A stretch of 64,000 nucleotides of DNA from a virus, in the IMG/VR virus record IMGVR_UViG_3300027792_000010. One strand, 5' to 3'. The notes under the pieces were generated by a model. That model saw only the letters and a list, made by a program, of their open reading frames with translations. It was not told the DNA's origin and did not search any database. The position numbers and the translations under genes are program-made. This document shows, piece by piece, positions 7,358 to 43,208 of this stretch. Numbering within the stretch: position 1 is the first letter of the stretch; the number at the start of each line of letters is the position of its first letter.

Positions 7358-7747
7358 CTATAGGCTCTTTTCTATTTTCGGTAAGTTTTCGGTAGTAGAA
7401 GTTTTATATGCTGGATAGGCATCTACTACATAGTTTCGTTTTTGCTTAATATCCTCAGGTAAGTCATTATGTATTTGGTGTCTAGTAACCTGCTGTATAT
7501 CGCAAGCTATTCTATAGTCTTCTGATATTTCTGAGCTACTTATCCCCCATGATGCCCCCATCTCAAAACCTGTGAGTTCTTTCTTCAGGTCATCACACAG
7601 GCTTTTTACTTTTTTAGGATTATCCATTTTAGATAGATAGCATAGTTCTATAGCGGTATTTATCTGTCCCAAGCCCATTCGCACCAATACTTCAAGGGCA
7701 TGGTCAACAACTCTGAGTTGTTCTTTAGATAGTGTGATAGTATACAT
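7358..7747 (-). CDS. hypothetical protein
   Basis: ORF downstream of AAAAAGTATATT promoter motif. Confidence 0.65.
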   Translation of the reverse strand: MYTITLSKEQLRVVDHALEVLVRMGLGQINTAIELCYLSKMDNPKKVKSLCDDLKKELTGFEMGASWGISSSEISEDYRIACDIQQVTRHQIHNDLPEDIKQKRNYVVDAYPAYKTSTTENLPKIEKSL

Positions 7748-22278: not shown

Positions 22279-22707
22279 TTAATTACTACATTTCCAGGAT
22301 GTTTTGGTACCACCATCGTATGATTTAGCATATCCTAATTTAATTAATTCTTTTGCAAGGTCTGATCCATCTACATAGATATCAGCATCTATTCTAAAGT
22401 ACTTATCTCTAGACATTCTTTTAAGTTCTATCTTTTTTGCATTTTTAAATTTAGCTATTACATAGTCACGTACTTCTATAGCTAAAATTTTTGAGCACTC
22501 TTTTCTTATTTCCGGGCAATCTACTCCTCTAAGTCTAATCCCAACATTAGTGCCTATAATAGGAGGAAAATCTTTTAAATTAACATAGTAGGTATCTCCA
22601 TCATAGACTCTTAAGATTCTCTCTATAACGGCATCCCCATAAAACACTTCTGCAGAATAGGCTGAATATAAAGCCAATAATATGACAATTGTGATAATTT
22701 TACGCAT
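22279..22707 (-). CDS. thermonuclease (SNase) family protein with signal/TM helix
   Basis: VYDGDT, IRLRGVDCPE, DKYFR. Confidence 0.9.
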   Translation of the reverse strand: MRKIITIVILLALYSAYSAEVFYGDAVIERILRVYDGDTYYVNLKDFPPIIGTNVGIRLRGVDCPEIRKECSKILAIEVRDYVIAKFKNAKKIELKRMSRDKYFRIDADIYVDGSDLAKELIKLGYAKSYDGGTKTSWKCSN

Positions 22708-22722
22708 AGCTAAAGTTCCTTA

Positions 22723-23616
22723 TTAAAAGTTGAAGTCATTAACTTGAAGTACTGTTATCCCTAACCCTCTAAAGAGTTTACAGACTTGTGGCCTATCATC
22801 CACTGCGAATAATACTTGATACTCAGGCTCTACTATGGTATGATACAGTTCTTCTTTTACGATAGAATCTTTTCTGGAATCCCCTGTAATTCTCATGATA
22901 AGTTTTTCATAGGGTACATTATGTTTCATTAACCAATTAGCTGTGGCATCCCTACAACTATCATCCCTACCAGACATAATTATAATCTCAAGCCCTGCCT
23001 CATAAAATAGATTAACAAGATATGCCACATACTCATCGAGGGTATCTTCCTCTACAAGGTCATAGGCATAGTAGTCCCTACCGCTGTAATTTAGGGCAAG
23101 AGTACCATCTAAGTCAATTATGACAGCATCTTTTTTTTCTGGATGGCTTATGAAAGCTTTTCTTACAGGGGGGAAATAAGCATCTCGTACTTCTACTTTT
23201 CTACCTCTGATATATTTATTAAACATATTCTCGATAATATGGGCGGGGACTATTTTTTCTCTTTTGGAGTTATTCTCCTGGGCCTCTTTAAGAGTAACTT
23301 CAAAGTATTTCTCAAATACCCGTACATCTCCCATTCTTTTCGCAATCTCACATATAGCCTCGTATGTTTTCTCACTCAGGTTAGTATCATCTATTATTAC
23401 ATCAAGACCTTTAGCTAAGCATTGCTCGATAAGAACATCTCTCACATTGGTGATGAAATTTTCATTAACTGTGTTATGCACATCATTATCAAGCATTACT
23501 CTAAGAAGGTCTTTATTTATCCTTTTATATTTCCCAGGATACTTCATTAGCATTTCTTTAGCCCAGGTACTCTTTCCTGATCCAGGTAATCCTCGTAATA
23601 ATATAATTATGCGCAT
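22723..23616 (-). CDS. T4 PseT-like polynucleotide kinase/3'-phosphatase
   Basis: RGLPGSGKST, INKD.LR; DLDGTLA, SGR, DDRPQV. Confidence 0.92.
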   Translation of the reverse strand: MRIIILLRGLPGSGKSTWAKEMLMKYPGKYKRINKDLLRVMLDNDVHNTVNENFITNVRDVLIEQCLAKGLDVIIDDTNLSEKTYEAICEIAKRMGDVRVFEKYFEVTLKEAQENNSKREKIVPAHIIENMFNKYIRGRKVEVRDAYFPPVRKAFISHPEKKDAVIIDLDGTLALNYSGRDYYAYDLVEEDTLDEYVAYLVNLFYEAGLEIIIMSGRDDSCRDATANWLMKHNVPYEKLIMRITGDSRKDSIVKEELYHTIVEPEYQVLFAVDDRPQVCKLFRGLGITVLQVNDFNF

Positions 23617-23618
23617 AT

Positions 23619-24254
23619 TTAATTCCTCAATTTATTAGGGACTACAGGTTTACTCATCCAATGTTCATCTGTTTGAACATGTCCTGAACGTACATATTTA
23701 ATATGATATTTACTAAAATCATTATACGGTATTTTGTCTGCTAACCTAACAACATACCCCTCTACCTCGTCTGTAGAATTTTTACAGTATTCTTCATATT
23801 TTTCATGTATAAGTTTTCTATCGTATATTCCTTTATAAAATACGTCTACTGTTTCTAACTCCAGTAAGCTTGCCCATGTGATTGTTTCATTCCATGATAC
23901 GGCTTCATTATATTCGTTAAATACAGTATAAAGATAAAAATAACTTTTTAAATTATTATAATGTATAGAGTGCGTTGCATATAGATTCTCACCGCACAGT
24001 CTGTGCCCCGGTGGTATTAAGTATCCTATTTTTCCATGTAACGACTTTATCCATACTCTCGAAGGATGCATCGCCGAATCTATAGATCTTGCATGTACCT
24101 TAGATGTGTACAAAGAAGATGATTCACCATCAACTTTTATACTACCTATTATTTCCTTTCCTTCAAAAACCGTTTCATTCTCATGCCTCCTGTCATCATT
24201 TTGTAGATTAGGAGAATCAGAAAAATGATATATACGTGGAAATTTATAATACAT
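23619..24254 (-). CDS. ATP-dependent RNA ligase family protein
   Basis: KFPRIYH, motif I KVDG, GENLYATHSI.Y, EGYVVR, KYVR. Confidence 0.85.
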   Translation of the reverse strand: MYYKFPRIYHFSDSPNLQNDDRRHENETVFEGKEIIGSIKVDGESSSLYTSKVHARSIDSAMHPSRVWIKSLHGKIGYLIPPGHRLCGENLYATHSIHYNNLKSYFYLYTVFNEYNEAVSWNETITWASLLELETVDVFYKGIYDRKLIHEKYEEYCKNSTDEVEGYVVRLADKIPYNDFSKYHIKYVRSGHVQTDEHWMSKPVVPNKLRN

Positions 24255-24299
24255 ATTTTTTTCTTTCCTGGGTTTTCCGTATTTTATTTCTATGCATCC

Positions 24300-24548
24300 T
24301 CAAAATGCATCCTCAAAAAACATAGCCACAAGTTGATCTGCTGGATTCATTTCCTCTATATCAGCTTGTACTAAACTAACTTTCATTTCCATATATGATT
24401 TAAGTTTTTCCATATATTCAGGTGTAACTTCTAAAAAATTATAATGGAATCCTGGGTGTATAACCACACTTTTTACTTTGTCCCCATTGTAGATTTTGTA
24501 ATCTAATTTCTGAAGAAACTCTTCAACAGTTTGCTTTTCTTTTTTCAT
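24300..24548 (-). CDS. hypothetical protein
   Basis: ORF with RBS. Confidence 0.55.
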   Translation of the reverse strand: MKKEKQTVEEFLQKLDYKIYNGDKVKSVVIHPGFHYNFLEVTPEYMEKLKSYMEMKVSLVQADIEEMNPADQLVAMFFEDAF

Positions 24549-24561
24549 TTAGTTACCTTTT

Positions 24562-25263
24562 TTAATCCTGTTGATAGCCTAATAAATCAAACAAAGCTCT
24601 ATGAGACCTCTTTTTTGGATTATAATTGAATCTCATAATAACCATATCACCTTTCCTTTGTGAAGGGGTGAAAGGTTTTCTGATAAGCCTTAGTCCTGCT
24701 TCCTCTGGAGTCTGGTTCTTTTTAATAACCACATTACAATGAAAACACGCAGTTACACAGTTATCAAAAGTGTTCTTACCGCCTCTTGATGTAGGCTGAA
24801 TATGATCGATAGTCCTATCTTCAGAAGTACACCTGTACTTATAAGGTTTGCATGGGGTCTCATACCCATTTTTATCAATTATATATTCATGATAGTACTG
24901 ACAAATATTATCATCTCTATTATAAATAGCAGTTTCACTAAAAGCCACAGTATCTGACTTAACCTTGTAACCGACGAACTCTATCAATCTAACAATAAGG
25001 GGCATCTTTAGCCTTACAACAAATTGATTATCCTGATCGAATATACACATCTTCTCAGAACCCCTAACATCAAGTATCCCATTGAGGAACTTATTGCGAG
25101 GATCTGAAGTTCCTATGATACGTTCATCATCGACTTTGATAATCTCTATTACTTTCCTGCTAAGAAGACTAAAGAATCTTTCAAGGTTAATCTCATCCCA
25201 GAAATGATAGCTCTGGTTTAGAACAACAATAGATGCACTCATATAGGCACCACTCCAATCCAC
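24562..25263 (-). CDS. HNH endonuclease (McrA-like)
   Basis: RD...CQY; TIDHIQPTSRGG.NTFDNCVTACFHCN. Confidence 0.9.
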   Translation of the reverse strand: MDWSGAYMSASIVVLNQSYHFWDEINLERFFSLLSRKVIEIIKVDDERIIGTSDPRNKFLNGILDVRGSEKMCIFDQDNQFVVRLKMPLIVRLIEFVGYKVKSDTVAFSETAIYNRDDNICQYYHEYIIDKNGYETPCKPYKYRCTSEDRTIDHIQPTSRGGKNTFDNCVTACFHCNVVIKKNQTPEEAGLRLIRKPFTPSQRKGDMVIMRFNYNPKKRSHRALFDLLGYQQD

Positions 25264-25356
25264 ATAAAAAAGACCTTCTTCCTATAGCACAGGTTTCGAT
25301 CTTTTATTATTAAATTAGTTGAATACAATATTACTTCCTCTCAAGCCACGGTTCGA

Positions 25357-26241
25357 TTAATAATCACCTTCTGCTACCTGAAACACTGGAAGTCCTAGCT
25401 CCCTATACATTTTAACGTTTCTCACTCGGTCCTCCCAGACGCTGAGGACATTGTACTTACCCTTAAAGTTCTGCTCATACAACTCCTGTTTGACTTCAAC
25501 ATCTGGTCTACGATCCCCAGTAGGTCTCATGTATATCTTATCAAACTGAATATTGTTCTTTATGAGCCACTCTTTTGTAACGTCATAGAATTTATCTTCC
25601 CTACCTGTAACAATAAATATTAAAAGATTAGGGTACATAACTTTTAGAGCATTAACAGCACATGCCACAGGCTCATTTCTCTTGTCTTTATATGAGCTAC
25701 CTGTGTCATATGGACTTCGCCCTTTGATTAGAGCTAATGTACCATCCATATCCACCAAAATACATACAGGGAGTCCGTCTATAGGCTTATATTCTGTCTT
25801 AGACTGCGCCTCCTCTGCTTTATCTGATTTGTACTGCTTCAGCATACGGTATATGACTGCGAGACCCACACGGGCTATCCCTGTGCGCATAGCATCTCTT
25901 GCTATGCACTCTTCAACTGGAATATCCATAAAGCTCTTGTACTCATACTCAGCCTTCCCAGCCAGAAACTCTTCCATTTTCCTTCTGGTATTTGCATTAC
26001 AGAAAGTCTCATCGACTATGACATTGAGATCTTTCGCCAATGCCTCCAGAATAAGTCTGTCCCTTTCGGCAAGTACTTGCTTCTCTACTTTGTTGTTGAA
26101 CTTGTAGTCTGGTCCTCCAAACTGGATACGGAGGTCATCGCGGTTCACACGGACCCAATTAGGGTTCTGTGCTATGAACTCTTTCGCCCAGGTGGATTTA
26201 CCACTTGCTGGAAGCCCTTGTAAAAGAAGTACTTTATTCAT
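25357..26241 (-). CDS. second T4 PseT-like polynucleotide kinase/3'-phosphatase
   Basis: GLPASGKST, VNRDDLR; DMDGTLA, TGR, EDR. Confidence 0.92.
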   Translation of the reverse strand: MNKVLLLQGLPASGKSTWAKEFIAQNPNWVRVNRDDLRIQFGGPDYKFNNKVEKQVLAERDRLILEALAKDLNVIVDETFCNANTRRKMEEFLAGKAEYEYKSFMDIPVEECIARDAMRTGIARVGLAVIYRMLKQYKSDKAEEAQSKTEYKPIDGLPVCILVDMDGTLALIKGRSPYDTGSSYKDKRNEPVACAVNALKVMYPNLLIFIVTGREDKFYDVTKEWLIKNNIQFDKIYMRPTGDRRPDVEVKQELYEQNFKGKYNVLSVWEDRVRNVKMYRELGLPVFQVAEGDY

Positions 26242-28913: not shown

Positions 28914-28995
28914 CGGAGGAAACAGGACTCGAACCTGCAAGGCCGATGAAAGCCTACACGCTTTCCAGGCGTACCACTTATCCAGTTAGTGTACC
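28914..28995 (-). tRNA. tRNA-Ser(GGA), interrupted: 5' acceptor strand GGAGG(G) displaced to 30314-30319 by the TnpB element
   Basis: D arm, TACGC-CTGGAAA-GCGTG anticodon arm, long V arm, T arm, TTCCTCC-G; 5' strand absent locally. Confidence 0.85.
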
Positions 28996-30313
28996 GTTCA
29001 TAAAAACTTGGACAAATCCAAATTAGTATGTCTTTGTTCTTGAGGGACGGTAGACTCCTCAATCGATCCAAAATGAAGTATATTTTTAGATGCATTATAA
29101 TCTGCATCACATGTATACCCACAAGATATACACTCATATACTTCTCCTTGTCTTGAATCTTTGTGGGTCTCCCCACAAGATGAACATCTCTGAGAAGTAT
29201 AAGCAGGAGATATTTTGATCAGATGAACACGGTTCTCTTCACAAATATCTTCGATCCTTCTATACACTTGTCTCAGGTTCCAATGAGCCTGTTCAGCTCT
29301 TTGAAATTTGTTCATACGTCTTTCTTGACGTGTTTTATGATTCATATTTATTAAATCCTCCATGACTACAGTTTTGTATTCATGGAGGTTAAGTTTCTTT
29401 ATCTCACAATCTATATAATCTTTCAAACTATTTAACGCTTGATTATAGTTCTTACTATGCTTCTTTTTTCTTAATAAATTCTGGATTTTAGAAGTTATCT
29501 CGGTACCGAGGAAACGACCATCAGAACATGAAAATAATTTATTTCTTCCAAGGTCTATTCCTAATGTTTTAAACTTAGCTATTGGGGTATCTTGAATATC
29601 TTTTTGAAAGAATAAGTTTGCATAGTACCTGTTTTGTTCTTTATTAAAATATAGTGTTAGGGATTTAGATAAGGAATAGCCACTATTACATAACTTATTA
29701 TACTGTCTATGCTTATGAGATGGAAGTATAAGTGAAAACCTGTTACCAAAAATGGAACCAAGTCTGATCCACAGGTCAAAACTTGAAGAAGTTTTTGACT
29801 CTTGTACATGGCATAGGTCAGAGTTTAGTTCTATAGTAGAACCATCAAATATAGGTTTATTTATTCTCGGTCTAAAAGTTTTACCTTTAGACCAAACAGA
29901 CCACGTTTTATTTACTATGGGATATTTTTTCTTCTTAGATTTAGCTTTAGCGTATATTTTTTTATATTTTGAATATATTCTTTTTTTATTATTAGTGTGA
30001 GCTGATTTAAGTATTTTCATAGCTTGATTACCTGCACACTTCATAGCTTTACCAAGTAACCAAGAGTATATTTGTTTATAGTGATTTGAGTTTATTTTAG
30101 AAGGTAGTTTTTCTTTTAACCAGTACAGGTCTATAAAGACATTAACGACTCTTTGATATTCTTCAAAGAATGATTTAAGTTTATCGATTTTAAAATTAGT
30201 AGCCTCATTCAAGGATACTTGAGATCGTTTAATAAGTTTCATAGTATTTATAGCCAAGTAAGAAATGTATAATATTATCTAAATATGTCTAAATTTTCTT
30301 TAAATAGTTTCAA
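28996..30313 (-). mobile_element. non-autonomous IS607-like element carrying only tnpB
   Basis: flanked by GG at both junctions (GGAGGG|TTGAAAC...AAGTTTTTATGAAC|GG); tnpB fills the element; no TnpA. Confidence 0.75.
28998..30242 (-). CDS. tnpB: RNA-guided endonuclease TnpB (Cas12f-like)
   Basis: RuvC GIDLG, VMEDL, PAYTSQRCSSCG, CISCG..DADYNASKNI; ATG 30242 (ORF track starts 30257). Confidence 0.9.
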   Translation of the reverse strand: MKLIKRSQVSLNEATNFKIDKLKSFFEEYQRVVNVFIDLYWLKEKLPSKINSNHYKQIYSWLLGKAMKCAGNQAMKILKSAHTNNKKRIYSKYKKIYAKAKSKKKKYPIVNKTWSVWSKGKTFRPRINKPIFDGSTIELNSDLCHVQESKTSSSFDLWIRLGSIFGNRFSLILPSHKHRQYNKLCNSGYSLSKSLTLYFNKEQNRYYANLFFQKDIQDTPIAKFKTLGIDLGRNKLFSCSDGRFLGTEITSKIQNLLRKKKHSKNYNQALNSLKDYIDCEIKKLNLHEYKTVVMEDLINMNHKTRQERRMNKFQRAEQAHWNLRQVYRRIEDICEENRVHLIKISPAYTSQRCSSCGETHKDSRQGEVYECISCGYTCDADYNASKNILHFGSIEESTVPQEQRHTNLDLSKFL

Positions 30314-34931: not shown

Positions 34932-35040
34932 CGGAGGGTGAGGGATTTGAACCCCCAAACCCGTAAGGGTGACGGTTTTCGCCGGAACATCTCATGGGTG
35001 TGCCGACAAGACCGTTGACTTACCATTAGCCTAACCCTCC
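34932..35040 (-). tRNA. tRNA-Ser(UGA) with 27-nt hairpin insertion in the anticodon (34980-35006)
   Basis: ACGGT-CTTG[27 nt]AAA-ACCGT, long V arm, G73. Confidence 0.88.
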
Positions 35041-41643: not shown

Positions 41644-41755
41644 TGGTGGTAGAGAGAGGATTTGAACCTCTGTACCCCGAAGGGAGCGGATTTGCTAAGT
41701 TCACCGCTCGGATGAACTTAACAGTCCGCCGCTTTTTCCACTCAGCCACTCTACC
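41644..41755 (-). tRNA. tRNA-Tyr(GUA) with 27-nt hairpin insertion in the anticodon (41694-41720)
   Basis: GCGGA-CTGT[27 nt]AAA-TCCGC, long V arm, G1-C72, A73, CCA. Confidence 0.88.
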
Positions 41756-41970: not shown

Positions 41971-42195
41971 TTAGAATCCTCTATTAGTTCCTTCTCCAGG
42001 AGGTACAAACATCATCCCCGGCATCCATCCAACATTCTTAGGGGTTTTATTTGTGCCTTTAGGAGCTAAGTCACTATAGGAGGAATGAATAGCTTTAGTG
42101 TTTTGAGTAGGAACTATATCGCTACTCTCAATATTATCTCTTGTTGTTATATTCTGTTTTTGAACCAAATTCATTAATTCCTGTACTTTAGACAT
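41971..42195 (-). CDS. hypothetical protein
   Basis: start MSKVQ with AAGGAG; the longer start overlaps tRNA-Leu. Confidence 0.55.
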   Translation of the reverse strand: MSKVQELMNLVQKQNITTRDNIESSDIVPTQNTKAIHSSYSDLAPKGTNKTPKNVGWMPGMMFVPPGEGTNRGF

Positions 42196-42210
42196 CTTAT
42201 ACTCCTTAAT

Positions 42211-42295
42211 TGCTAGTAGAGGGGCTCGAACCCACACGGGGAAAATCCCCACAAACTTCTAAGGCTTGCGCGGCTACCAGTTACGCCATACTAGC
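42211..42295 (-). tRNA. tRNA-Leu(UAG)
   Basis: CAAGC-CTTAGAA-GTTTG, long V arm, A73. Confidence 0.9.
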
Positions 42296-42308
42296 ATAAA
42301 AGATATTA

Positions 42309-42481
42309 ATCGAAAATTAAGAGGGTCTTATACGAGTTATCAGAGCGTTAATGAAAGCTTATAGGCTTTTGCGGTTACCATTTCGCCATCCCTGCGTAAA
42401 GATGCAGGGACCAGGATTCGAACCTGGAAATTTTAATGTATGCTCGTAAAGTTAGAGTATAAAACCCACTTAATACTCGAT
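42309..42481 (-). ncRNA. circularly permuted tRNA-like RNA (or Y-RNA-like)
   Basis: order T arm, TCCCTGC-A, 7-nt linker, GCAGGGA, D arm, anticodon-like hairpin; flanks pair (42457-42467 with 42323-42333). Confidence 0.75.
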
Positions 42482-42487
42482 TATTTT

Positions 42488-42563
42488 TGGAGGCGGTGAT
42501 GGGCCTCGAACCCACATACTCGGTTTTGCAGACCGATGCATGAACCTATTCTGCTACACCGCC
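42488..42563 (-). tRNA. tRNA-Cys(GCA)
   Basis: TCGGT-CTGCAAA-ACCGA, U73, CCA. Confidence 0.95.
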
Positions 42564-42576
42564 CTATTTATAGATG

Positions 42577-42621
42577 GGCTATATTCCTGCGGAGCAATAC
42601 TGCTCGTACAGGAATGTAGCC
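42577..42621 (-). other. long hairpin upstream of tRNA-Cys
   Basis: GGCTA-C-ATTCCTG..GAGCA-GTAT-TGCTC..CAGGAAT-A-TAGCC. Confidence 0.6.
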
Positions 42622-42779
42622 ATTTATTTAGAAACAGTTATTTCCGTTTCACAAAGTGCTTATTACATCGAACCATGACTGTCAAAGAACTTAAAAACAA
42701 CCTACCAGATCATATAGCACCTTGGCGTAACCTCGCCTACCACAACTCCGATCTGGCCCAGGGGCACTGCCGGGCTATG

Positions 42780-43179: not shown

Positions 43180-43208
43180 AATATACCATTTTGTAGAACC
43201 AAGATCAA
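43180..43208 (-). promoter_or_regulatory. sigma70-type promoter TTGATC-N17-TATATT for leader 1
   Basis: 25/29 identical to the leader-2 promoter; extended -10 TG. Confidence 0.8.

What the first reader, a model, noticed from the sequence alone, without database searches (positions are those of the whole stretch)
42309..42481. Circularly permuted tRNA-like gene within the array
Minus-strand order: CCAGG-TTCGAAT-CCTGG (T arm), TCCCTGC-A (acceptor 3' strand), linker TCTTTAC, GCAGGGA (perfect acceptor 5' strand), Leu-type D arm, then AAAGC-CTATAA-GCTTT (only a 6-nt loop). The flanks pair (GGGTTTTATAC/GTATAAGACCC, GAGC/GCTC, TTAAG/CTTAA, TCGA), placing the break at the variable arm. Established: permuted tRNAs occur in red/green algae and Thermofilum, with junctions elsewhere; bacterial YrlA Y RNAs also have T-acceptor-D order closed by a terminal stem. 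Inference: a permuted tRNA matured by cut/ligation, a Y-like RNA (no Ro60 in this window), or a decoy for anticodon nucleases.
Basis: partly seen in the sequence, partly recalled or inferred. Interest (0 to 1): 0.8.

Follow-up and report, generated by a model that had tools for sequence, protein, structure and literature searches.

The report
Phage Y-RNA-like permuted tRNA mimic
The flagged stretch is a real small-RNA gene in a phage tRNA operon: a tRNA look-alike with its halves swapped and its acceptor end sealed, sitting on a conserved stem that in related phages is encoded next to a Ro60-type RNA-binding protein, so it is most likely a Y-RNA-like tRNA mimic and not a decoding tRNA.

Summary
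On the minus strand, 42308-42482 folds (z = -6.9) into T arm, sealed 7-bp acceptor hairpin, Leu-type D arm and a 5-bp hairpin with a 6-nt loop. A roughly 25-bp flank helix closes it and leaves at the variable-arm position.

It is not a lone oddity. A covariance model built from five relatives, without the window, hits 42322-42468(-) over its full length (87.9 bits, E about 2e-19). Ten members show 26 of 30 pairs with compensatory changes.

The members share a "handle": an outer helix, a ..ACU.. loop, a short helix, AUACAU, then GAYRACUY and the outer helix again. In relatives the same handle also carries normal-order tRNA-like or minimal cargo.

All four related phage records with this handle encode a 520-550-aa protein that folds as full-length Ro60. 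In three of them a handle RNA lies 0.6-0.8 kb upstream on the same strand. No such gene, TROVE, RtcB or RNase III lies in this 64-kb window, and the rest of the genome could not be searched.

A decoding permuted tRNA is unlikely: the loop is 6 nt and not conserved, and some relatives seal the acceptor with a tetraloop.

This scan has found this kind of RNA before on other phage DNA. I call it a new variant of a known kind (YrlA / phage Y-like RNAs).

The parts
42468..42482 (-). Outermost helix, 5' strand (AAUCGAG-U-AUUAAG-U). It extends the basal stem beyond the conserved handle.
   Evidence: MFE and constrained folds; sequence verified.
42457..42467 (-). Handle outer helix, 5' strand (GGGUUUUAUAC).
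   Evidence: 11/11 pairs with 42323-42333. This helix covaries in all 10 columns across 7 homologues and in 9 of 10 pairs.
42446..42456 (-). Handle 5' internal loop (UCUAACUUUAC) holding the ..ACU.. motif.
   Evidence: ACU is present in 6 of 7 homologues at this place.
42442..42445 (-). Helix C, 5' strand (GAGC).
   Evidence: Pairs with GCUC at 42343-42346. Equivalent short helices occur in L176, L230 and L219.
42428..42441 (-). Junction J1, starting with the conserved AUACAU (42436-42441).
   Evidence: RGCRUACAU is shared with L176, L230, L219, four units of L237 and L203.
42411..42427 (-). T arm (CCAGG / UUCGAAU / CCUGG).
   Evidence: Three of five stem pairs covary in homologues.
42404..42410 (-). 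Acceptor 3' strand (UCCCUGC).
   Evidence: 7/7 pairs with 42389-42395. All 7 pairs show compensatory changes in homologues.
42396..42403 (-). 8-nt loop sealing the acceptor stem (A + UCUUUAC). No CCA is encoded.
   Evidence: In homologues the loop is 4-27 nt and unconserved, and includes UUCG and CGAG tetraloops.
42389..42395 (-). Acceptor 5' strand (GCAGGGA).
42371..42388 (-). UG plus a Leu-type D arm (GCG / AAAUGGUAAC / CGC).
   Evidence: The 5' half is most similar to the neighbouring tRNA-Leu(UAG): local score 19, next best 13.
42354..42369 (-). Anticodon-position hairpin: 5-bp stem and 6-nt loop CUAUAA (42359-42364).
   Evidence: The stem covaries. The loop is 6-7 nt and its sequence is not conserved in homologues.
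42347..42353 (-). Junction J2 (CAUUAAC).
42343..42346 (-). Helix C, 3' strand (GCUC).
42334..42342 (-). Handle 3' internal loop (UGAUAACUC), matching the family motif GAYRACUY.
   Evidence: RACUY directly precedes the outer helix 3' strand in 7 of 7 homologues.
42323..42333 (-). Handle outer helix, 3' strand (GUAUAAGACCC).
42308..42322 (-). Outermost helix, 3' strand.
42488..42563 (-). Upstream tRNA-Cys(GCA) with encoded CCA. Its 3' processing would set the 5' end of the element.
   Evidence: The same order Cys - element - Leu occurs in L176.
42210..42295 (-). Downstream tRNA-Leu(UAG). RNase P cleavage at its 5' end would set the 3' limit of the element.
43180..43208 (-). Promoter-like site of the operon that contains the element.
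   Evidence: TTGATC-17-TATATT with an extended -10 TG. No minus-strand terminator was found between it and the element.
22723..26241 (-). Context only: an RNA healing and sealing block. It holds two polynucleotide kinase-phosphatases (22723-23616 and 25357-26241), an RNA ligase (23619-24254) and an HNH nuclease (24562-25263).
   Evidence: Pfam PF25109 at E 2.6e-42 and 1.6e-37; PF09414 at 5.7e-24; PF01844 at 4.3e-10.

Best explanation
The segment encodes a structured non-coding RNA of about 150-175 nt that belongs to a phage family of Y-RNA-like scaffold RNAs.

A long basal stem, the handle, consists of an 11-bp outer helix, an asymmetric internal loop with ..ACU.. on one side and GAYRACUY on the other, a 4-bp helix, and AUACAU. 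It carries a tRNA-Leu-derived module in circularly permuted order: T arm, loop-sealed 7-bp acceptor stem, D arm, and a 5-bp anticodon-position hairpin with a 6-nt loop.

It is transcribed as part of the tRNA operon. It is probably released by the same cuts that free tRNA-Cys upstream and tRNA-Leu downstream (inferred).

In related phages, RNAs with this handle are encoded beside a divergent but full-length Ro60 homologue. By analogy with Rsr-YrlA and the Thermus phage phiLo Ro60-Yrl pairs, the handle would dock on a Ro60-type ring, and the tRNA-shaped module would present a tRNA look-alike to tRNA-binding enzymes or nucleases. The likely role is RNA surveillance or repair during infection (inferred).

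The RNA is not expected to decode. Shown here: the structure, family membership, covariation, and the Ro60 link in relatives. Inferred: expression, the ends of the RNA, the partner in this particular phage, and the biochemical role.
For: Structure: fold z = -6.9.

Membership: model R1, built without the window, hits window:42322-42468(-) over its full length at 87.9 bits, E about 2e-19. It is the only strong hit in the window.

Covariation: in 10 members, 90.3% of cells pair against 62.6% in shuffles (0 of 500 shuffles as high). 26 of 30 pairs change on both sides, and slid registers pair only 36-48%. My own parse of 7 members gives 27 of 30 columns compensatory and 206 of 210 cells paired.

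Shared single-stranded motifs RGCRUACAU and RACUY occur in all members.

Synteny: L176 has tRNA-Cys - element - tRNA-Leu plus the same upstream GTTCTTTGACA motif. The L237 contig has a topoisomerase 53% identical to the window's, 5 kb downstream of its handle RNAs.

Partner in relatives: a 520-550-aa protein is present in 4 of 4 handle-bearing records. A handle motif lies 0.6-0.8 kb upstream on the same strand in three of them and 4.5 kb away in the fourth. Its AlphaFold model (pLDDT 82) matches Ro60 structures as the top 12 PDB hits, over its full length, TM 0.55-0.64. Profile searches agree.

A sister family that also leaves at the variable-arm position lies directly upstream of Pfam-TROVE genes in L124, L140 and L143.

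Precedent: M. smegmatis YrlA has a 7-bp acceptor stem and is cut by RNase P and CCA-tailed, and D. radiodurans Yrn1 has a 5-bp stem with a 6-nt 'anticodon loop' (PMC4201824). The phiLo Ro60 binds phage Yrl RNAs (PMC12135203).
Against: - No Ro60, TROVE or vWA gene lies in the 64-kb window. An HMM of 61 family members gives a best E of 0.13. tblastn with three phage TROVE proteins finds nothing. Pfam on all ORFs of 150 aa or more finds none.
- At the position where the relative L237 has its Ro60 block, this phage has tRNA genes.
- The rest of the genome could not be searched, so the partner may be absent.
- The Rfam YrlA and Y RNA models do not match, and the GNCGAA / CGAA motif of described Y RNAs is not present as such.
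- There are no transcript or binding data.
Confidence: 0.62

Rival explanations
1. Orphan tRNA mimic that works without Ro60 in this phage. The RNA would act as a decoy or sponge for tRNA-targeting host defences such as anticodon nucleases, or for tRNA-modifying or processing enzymes. It would be expressed together with the phage tRNAs and its RNA-repair enzymes.
For: No Ro60-type gene lies within 42 kb on one side and 21 kb on the other. The element sits in a tRNA operon near two kinase-phosphatases and an RNA ligase. A sealed acceptor and a non-canonical loop fit a molecule that is bound but not used. In the sister family the anticodon-like loops copy those of ordinary tRNAs in the same phage.
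Against: The conserved handle has no obvious role in a pure decoy, and elsewhere it always co-occurs with the Ro60 homologue. The loop sequence is not conserved between syntenic homologues: CUAUAA here, CUGCAAA in L176.
Confidence: 0.17
2. Genuine circularly permuted tRNA gene. The flank helix would be cut, for example by RNase III, and the ends either joined by the phage RNA ligase or left as a two-piece molecule. RNase P and CCA addition would then open the acceptor loop, giving a class II (Leu-type) tRNA with a long variable arm.
For: The element has a perfect 7-bp acceptor stem, an A at the discriminator position, a T arm and a Leu-type D arm. The phage encodes kinase-phosphatases and an RNA ligase. 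Two tRNAs in the same operon carry 27-nt hairpin inserts that also need a cut-and-join route. Some members of the sister family encode ACCA right after the acceptor 3' strand and have canonical 7-nt loops.
Against: The loop here is 6 nt, and loops of 6-7 nt are unconserved among close homologues. Relatives seal the acceptor with the tetraloops UUCG and CGAG. The same handle carries normal-order tRNA-like and minimal T-arm-only cargo. There is no bulge-helix-bulge motif. In the sister family the 'anticodons' duplicate ordinary tRNAs of the same phage. The family is linked to Ro60.
Confidence: 0.07
3. Evolutionary relic: a handle RNA left behind after this lineage lost the Ro60 block. It is still transcribed but has no function.
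For: The Ro60 block present in the relative L237 between the handle RNAs and the topoisomerase is missing here. The anticodon-position loop is one base shorter than in most homologues.
Against: All six helices are intact: 11/11, 4/4, 5/5, 7/7, 3/3 and 5/5 pairs. Both handle motifs are kept. The score of 87.9 bits is as good as that of members next to a Ro60 gene. L230 shows an equally intact copy, also with a 6-nt loop, sitting in a tRNA array 26 kb from that phage's Ro60 gene.
Confidence: 0.08
4. Processing or insulator element of the polycistronic tRNA transcript: a long double-stranded stem serving as an RNase III entry site, with the tRNA-like part incidental.
For: The basal stem is about 25 bp and lies between two tRNAs.
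Against: Conservation and covariation cover the whole tRNA-like module and the specific internal-loop motifs, not only a generic duplex. Arrays of such units also occur without any tRNA genes, as in L237 and L188.
Confidence: 0.04

Closest known systems
YrlA, the tRNA-like Y RNA of bacteria and mycobacteriophages that binds Ro60/Rsr (Chen et al. 2014, PMC4201824; Rfam RF02553)
   Same: The module order is T arm, loop-closed acceptor-like stem, D arm, carried on a stem formed by the RNA's own 5' and 3' ends. YrlA is encoded near Ro60 on the same strand, as the window element's relatives are. The M. smegmatis form has a 7-bp acceptor stem, as here.
   Different: In YrlA the basal stem replaces the anticodon stem. 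Here an anticodon-position hairpin is kept and the stem leaves at the variable-arm position. The handle motifs differ (RGCRUACAU / GAYRACUY here, GNCGAAN0-1G in YrlA). The Rfam model does not match at E up to 10. No Ro60 gene lies within 4 kb, or anywhere in the 64-kb window.
Thermus phage phiLo Ro60 with Yrl1 and Yrl2 (PMC12135203; PDB 9KOP, 9L5Y)
   Same: A phage-encoded Ro60 with Y-like RNAs encoded just upstream. The Ro60-fold protein of the window element's relatives matches these structures.
   Different: Yrl1 and Yrl2 were defined by a CGAA motif in a stem-bulge-stem and are not described as tRNA-shaped. The partner family here is not detected by Pfam TROVE.
Deinococcus radiodurans Yrn1 (described in PMC4201824)
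   Same: A Y RNA with a T-arm-like element and an 'anticodon arm' of 5 bp with a 6-nt loop, the same odd loop size as here.
   Different: A different order of arms relative to the ends, no clear D arm, and a metazoan-like Ro-binding helix.
Circularly permuted tRNA genes of the red alga Cyanidioschyzon merolae, green algae and Thermofilum (from my own knowledge of Soma et al. 2007 and later work; PMC3673656 mentions them for prasinophyte algae)
   Same: The 3' half (T arm and acceptor 3' strand) lies upstream of the 5' half, joined by a short linker, and the flanks pair.
   Different: Those precursors form a bulge-helix-bulge motif for the splicing endonuclease, have junctions in the D, anticodon or T loops, and give decoding tRNAs with 7-nt anticodon loops. 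None of this holds here.
Abundant non-coding RNAs upstream of an Rsr-like gene in Listeria phage CKA15 (PMC12282133)
   Same: Highly expressed phage RNAs lie within 2 kb upstream, on the same strand, of a Ro60-like protein that only sensitive searches detect. This is the arrangement seen in L237, L219 and G007.
   Different: The authors gave no structure or family for those RNAs, and I did not compare the sequences.

Membership tests
Phage handle RNAs (uncatalogued Y-like family, here called clade B) | Full-length match to a covariance model built from other members only. | tested here: met
   R1, built from L176, L230, L219 and two L237 units, hits window:42322-42468(-) at 87.9 bits, E about 2e-19, over model positions 1-145 of 145.
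Phage handle RNAs (uncatalogued Y-like family, here called clade B) | Handle anatomy: outer helix of 10-13 bp, 5' loop with ACU, short helix C, RUACAU, and RACUY directly before the outer helix 3' strand. | tested here: met
   All of these are present at 42323-42467.
Phage handle RNAs (uncatalogued Y-like family, here called clade B) | A Ro60-fold protein encoded in the same genome, usually within 1-5 kb on the same strand. | tested here: inconclusive
   Absent from the 64-kb window. The whole genome is not held. In the relative G007 one member also lies 26 kb from the gene.
YrlA (Rfam RF02553) | Match to the Rfam covariance model. | tested here: not met
   No YrlA or Y_RNA hit at E up to 10 on 42150-42650, and none on the relatives L176, L197, L203 and L237.
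YrlA (Rfam RF02553) | GNCGAAN0-1G motif near the 5' end. | tested here: not met
   The nearest strings are UCGAG and ACGAGC.
YrlA (Rfam RF02553) | T arm, closed acceptor-like stem and D arm on a stem made by the RNA's ends. | tested here: met
YrlA (Rfam RF02553) | Encoded within about 4 kb of a Ro60 orthologue on the same strand. | tested here: not met
   No TROVE or Ro60-fold ORF in the window.
Circularly permuted tRNA genes (algal / archaeal type) | 3' half upstream of the 5' half, with complementary acceptor strands. | tested here: met
   7/7 acceptor pairs across an 8-nt linker.
Circularly permuted tRNA genes (algal / archaeal type) | Bulge-helix-bulge motif formed by the flanks. | tested here: not met
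   The flanks form an 11-bp helix, an 11 x 9 nt internal loop and a 4-bp helix. There are no two 3-nt bulges spaced by 4 bp.
Circularly permuted tRNA genes (algal / archaeal type) | Canonical 7-nt anticodon loop giving a needed decoder. | tested here: not met
   The loop is CUAUAA (6 nt). Homologues have unrelated loops of 6-7 nt.
Circularly permuted tRNA genes (algal / archaeal type) | A circular or ligated intermediate and a mature CCA-ended tRNA. | not testable with these tools
   This needs RNA from infected cells.

The most novel reading that the evidence does not exclude
The sealed acceptor may be opened by RNase P, trimmed and CCA-tailed, as happens to M. smegmatis YrlA. That would give a two-piece, Leu-type tRNA held together by its acceptor stem and by the long variable-arm helix. 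LeuRS does not read the anticodon, so it could charge this molecule. The phage would then make a Ro60-dockable, aminoacylatable split tRNA that reports on, or takes part in, tRNA damage and repair during infection.
Probability: 0.1. Interest if true: 0.85.

Novelty: new variant of a known kind. Interest (0 to 1): 0.5.

Why it matters
Y RNAs with tRNA-like domains are known from a few bacteria and mycobacteriophages, but what the tRNA mimicry is for remains open.

This element shows a design I found in none of the papers I searched. It is a complete tRNA shape, anticodon-position hairpin included, in permuted order. It hangs by its variable arm on a conserved handle that matches no Rfam family. 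In relatives it is paired with Ro60 homologues that Pfam does not recognise.

Because the same handle carries permuted, normal-order and minimal tRNA-like cargo, the family is a natural set of variants. It could be used to test what a Ro60 particle needs from its tRNA mimic.

The location also matters. The element sits inside an attenuator-gated tRNA operon, next to kinase-phosphatases and RNA ligases, which links Y-like RNAs to the contest between phages and hosts over tRNA integrity.

Tried and rejected
Searches that found nothing:
- Rfam at gathering and at E up to 10: only tRNA hits, no YrlA or Y RNA.
- megablast and blastn of the region against 50,697 phage records: no homologue, only T-loop matches.
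- Close relatives by the radical SAM and topoisomerase proteins in IMG/VR: none.
- An exact 25-mer of the element in IMG/VR: none.

- The window's own genome is not held.
I redid the analysis by parsing the referenced sequences programmatically.

Method limits:
- MAFFT alignments of the family (A3, A4) were not consistent with the structure. I therefore realigned with the covariance model (A7), which leans towards the model's structure.

Readings rejected:
- Two decayed neighbouring tRNAs. The acceptor strands are perfectly complementary and every helix covaries.
- Archaeal-type splicing. There is no bulge-helix-bulge motif.
- A gap-filling decoder. The loop is 6 nt, and the sister family's loops duplicate ordinary tRNAs of the same phage.

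Full report
**1. The observation**

Read on the minus strand, 42308-42482 contains, in this order:

- two outer helices;
- an 11-bp helix (GGGUUUUAUAC with GUAUAAGACCC);
- an asymmetric internal loop;
- a 4-bp helix (GAGC with GCUC);
- 14 unpaired bases that begin AUACAU;
- a canonical T arm;
- a 7-bp acceptor stem whose two strands are joined by an 8-nt loop;
- UG;
- a Leu-type D arm;
- a 5-bp hairpin with the 6-nt loop CUAUAA;
- 7 unpaired bases, then the returning strands.

The fold is far more stable than shuffles (-57.5 against -32.6 +/- 3.6 kcal/mol, z = -6.9). ARAGORN and the Rfam tRNA model skip it while calling 17 tRNAs around it. One U-G pair in the outer helix, and the orientation of all neighbouring tRNAs, place the RNA on the minus strand. 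Its 5' half is most similar to the adjacent tRNA-Leu(UAG).

**2. Setting**

The window is part of a large uncultured phage. It holds 17-19 tRNA genes, a TnpB element, a type IA topoisomerase, radical SAM enzymes and homing endonucleases. It is absent from INPHARED and IMG/VR, and no whole genome is held.

The element lies 5 nt after the CCA of tRNA-Cys and 12 nt before tRNA-Leu(UAG). It sits downstream of a promoter-like site at 43180-43208, with no terminator in between. About 16-20 kb away are two polynucleotide kinase-phosphatases, an RNA ligase, an HNH nuclease and a staphylococcal-nuclease homologue.

**3. Relatives**

A generic pattern (T loop, 18-32 nt, Leu-type D loop) run over IMG/VR returned 120 loci. 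Ten of them had 7/7 complementary acceptor strands, where about 0.1 is expected by chance. Sealed-acceptor permuted tRNA modules are therefore common in viral contigs.

A tighter pattern gave 10 viral and 66 metagenome loci, about 45 of them permuted. These fall into at least two groups that both leave the tRNA-like core at the variable-arm position.

- *Sister group.* It has a junction motif UUACUUCGAU and an internal loop UAGUCA opposite AAUAUUCU. Most members have canonical 7-nt anticodon-like loops, and some encode ACCA after the acceptor 3' strand. Three of three records tested encode a Pfam-TROVE protein. In L124/L197, L140 and L143 the RNA ends less than 0.4 kb upstream of that gene on the same strand. 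The anticodon-like loops copy those of ordinary tRNAs in the same phage.
- *The window's own group.* It is marked by RGCRUACAU before the T arm and RACUY before the returning outer helix. It contains L176, L230, L219, L237, L203, L188 and L173.

Three observations tie the window to its own group:

- L176 is syntenic with the window: tRNA-Cys, element, tRNA-Leu, a second element, tRNA-Tyr, and the same GTTCTTTGACA motif upstream.
- L237 comes from a 173-kb contig whose topoisomerase is 53% identical to the window's and lies 5 kb downstream of the RNAs.
- L230 shares three further proteins with the window.

**4. Membership and covariation**

I built a covariance model from five relatives, leaving the window out. 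It hits window:42322-42468(-) end to end at 87.9 bits, E about 2e-19. The next window hits are weak partial matches to tandem tRNAs (E 0.013 or worse).

On the ten best members:

| Measure | Observed | Control |
|---|---|---|
| Cells that pair | 90.3% | 62.6% in shuffles (0 of 500 as high) |
| Pairs changed on both sides | 26 of 30 | - |
| Pairing in registers slid by 1-3 columns | - | 36-48% |

That alignment is fitted to the model, so the counts lean towards it. An independent programmatic parse of seven members gives 27 of 30 columns with compensatory changes and 206 of 210 cells paired.

Two features are not conserved:

- The acceptor-sealing loop is 4-27 nt and includes UUCG and CGAG.
- The anticodon-position loop varies: CUAUAA, CUGCAAA, CUUAGA, CUUGAAA, UCGCAAA, AUUCGGA, UCAUAAA.

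**5. The handle is the constant part and the cargo varies**

In L237 four units stand in a row. Two have permuted cargo. Two have a normal-order tRNA-like body, one ending in CCA, between the same handle strands. In L203 one unit carries only a T arm and a hairpin, and another carries a permuted tRNA with an insert of about 150 nt in the sealing loop. This argues that the conserved function lies in the handle plus a tRNA-shaped surface, not in decoding.

**6. The partner in relatives**

Downstream of the L237 units, and of the L219 unit, lies a protein of about 520 aa with no Pfam hit. The two copies are 28% identical.

- It belongs to a family of at least 885 proteins, mostly labelled hypothetical and found on contigs up to 512 kb.
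- Profile comparison with phage TROVE proteins gives 96.7% probability.
- Its profile finds Ro60 chains as the best PDB sequences (E 3.9e-6).
- Five of 24 members touch the Ro60 vWA model.
- Its HMM cross-hits Pfam-positive phage TROVE proteins.
- An AlphaFold model (pLDDT 82) matches human, Xenopus, Deinococcus and phage phiLo Ro60 as its top 12 PDB hits, over the full length (TM 0.55-0.64, E 1e-10 to 4e-7).
- The family is present in 4 of 4 records that carry handle RNAs.
- Handle motifs lie 0.6-0.8 kb upstream on the same strand in three of those records and 4.5 kb away in the fourth. G007 also has the L230 unit 26 kb away inside a tRNA array, which parallels the window.

**7. This phage**

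Neither this family nor TROVE, vWA, RtcB or RNase III is encoded in the window. Where L237 has its Ro60 block, the window has tRNA genes. Whether a partner is encoded elsewhere in the genome cannot be decided here. This is the main uncertainty.

**8. Mechanism**

The best-supported reading is a Y-RNA-like scaffold. The handle would dock a Ro60-type ring. The permuted, sealed tRNA module would offer a tRNA look-alike to enzymes that recognise tRNA.

Published precedent:

- YrlA is modified by tRNA enzymes (PMC4201824).
- The M. smegmatis form, the one with a 7-bp acceptor stem, is cut by RNase P and CCA-tailed in vivo (PMC4201824).
- Yrn1 has a 6-nt 'anticodon loop' (PMC4201824).
- A phage Ro60 binds phage Yrl RNAs and host PNPase (PMC12135203).
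- Jumbo phages are noted to carry TROVE proteins among their RNA-repair genes (PMC7824862).
- A Listeria phage makes abundant RNAs upstream of an Rsr-like gene (PMC12282133).

With its perfect 7-bp acceptor stem, the window RNA is a plausible RNase P substrate. That is an inference.

**9. Comparison and novelty**

The element works like YrlA but fails the YrlA membership tests that could be run: the Rfam model, the GNCGAA motif and proximity to Ro60. It also differs in anatomy, because it keeps an anticodon-position hairpin and leaves by the variable arm.

It is not a permuted tRNA of the algal or archaeal kind. I found no paper on permuted tRNA genes in phages.

Earlier agents of this scan have described Y-like permuted tRNA mimics and the divergent Ro60 family on other phage DNA. 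My results agree with them and were obtained independently here.

**Verdict:** a real gene, a new variant of a known kind, of moderate interest.

Noticed in passing
window 41647-41755 (-) and 34932-35040 (-): tRNA-Tyr and tRNA-Ser(UGA) each carry a 27-nt hairpin between anticodon positions 35 and 36. In the extended helix the two splice points are offset by 2 bp, leaving 2-nt 3' overhangs, which is the geometry of an RNase III cut. Earlier notes of the scan describe the same.
   Followed up: partly
window 28914-28960 (-), just after the TnpB ORF 28998-30257: An orphan T arm plus acceptor 3' strand (GGTTCGAGTCC ... TTCCTCC-G) follows the tnpB stop codon. It looks like the 3' part of a tRNA-Ser split by the TnpB element.
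   Followed up: no
window 22279-26241 (-): An RNA healing and sealing block: a staphylococcal-nuclease homologue, two polynucleotide kinase-phosphatase paralogues, a 211-aa RNA ligase (PF09414) and an HNH nuclease. The ligase is 38% identical to one in the Ro60-bearing phage record G001.
   Followed up: partly
L237 2953-3270 (+): Two units carry the same handle as the window element but with a normal-order tRNA-like body, one ending ACCA and having an enlarged anticodon arm. ARAGORN finds no tRNA in this 14-kb locus.
   Followed up: partly
L119 about 7520-7720 (+): A sealed-acceptor permuted module (T arm, closed acceptor, D arm) appears to be nested inside the anticodon loop of a normal-order tRNA-like gene.
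   Followed up: no
L157 and L169 (rumen metagenomes): Two nearly identical sister-family RNAs differ at the middle anticodon-like base (GTA versus GCA) and at the discriminator position (C versus U). U73 plus GCA is the cysteine identity set.
   Followed up: no
It contains a TTGACA -35-like hexamer.
   Followed up: no
L205, L207, L225, L252, L254, L220: Another conserved RNA-like region starts with GCATACAT and a T arm. It is followed by about 150 nt that are conserved between contigs and match nothing I recognised.
   Followed up: no
L237 480-1847 and 11649-12293: Two small stand-alone vWA proteins lie upstream of the Ro60-linked RNA array and a ThiF/E1-like protein lies downstream. Earlier notes of the scan describe a ubiquitin-like module at this locus.
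   Followed up: no
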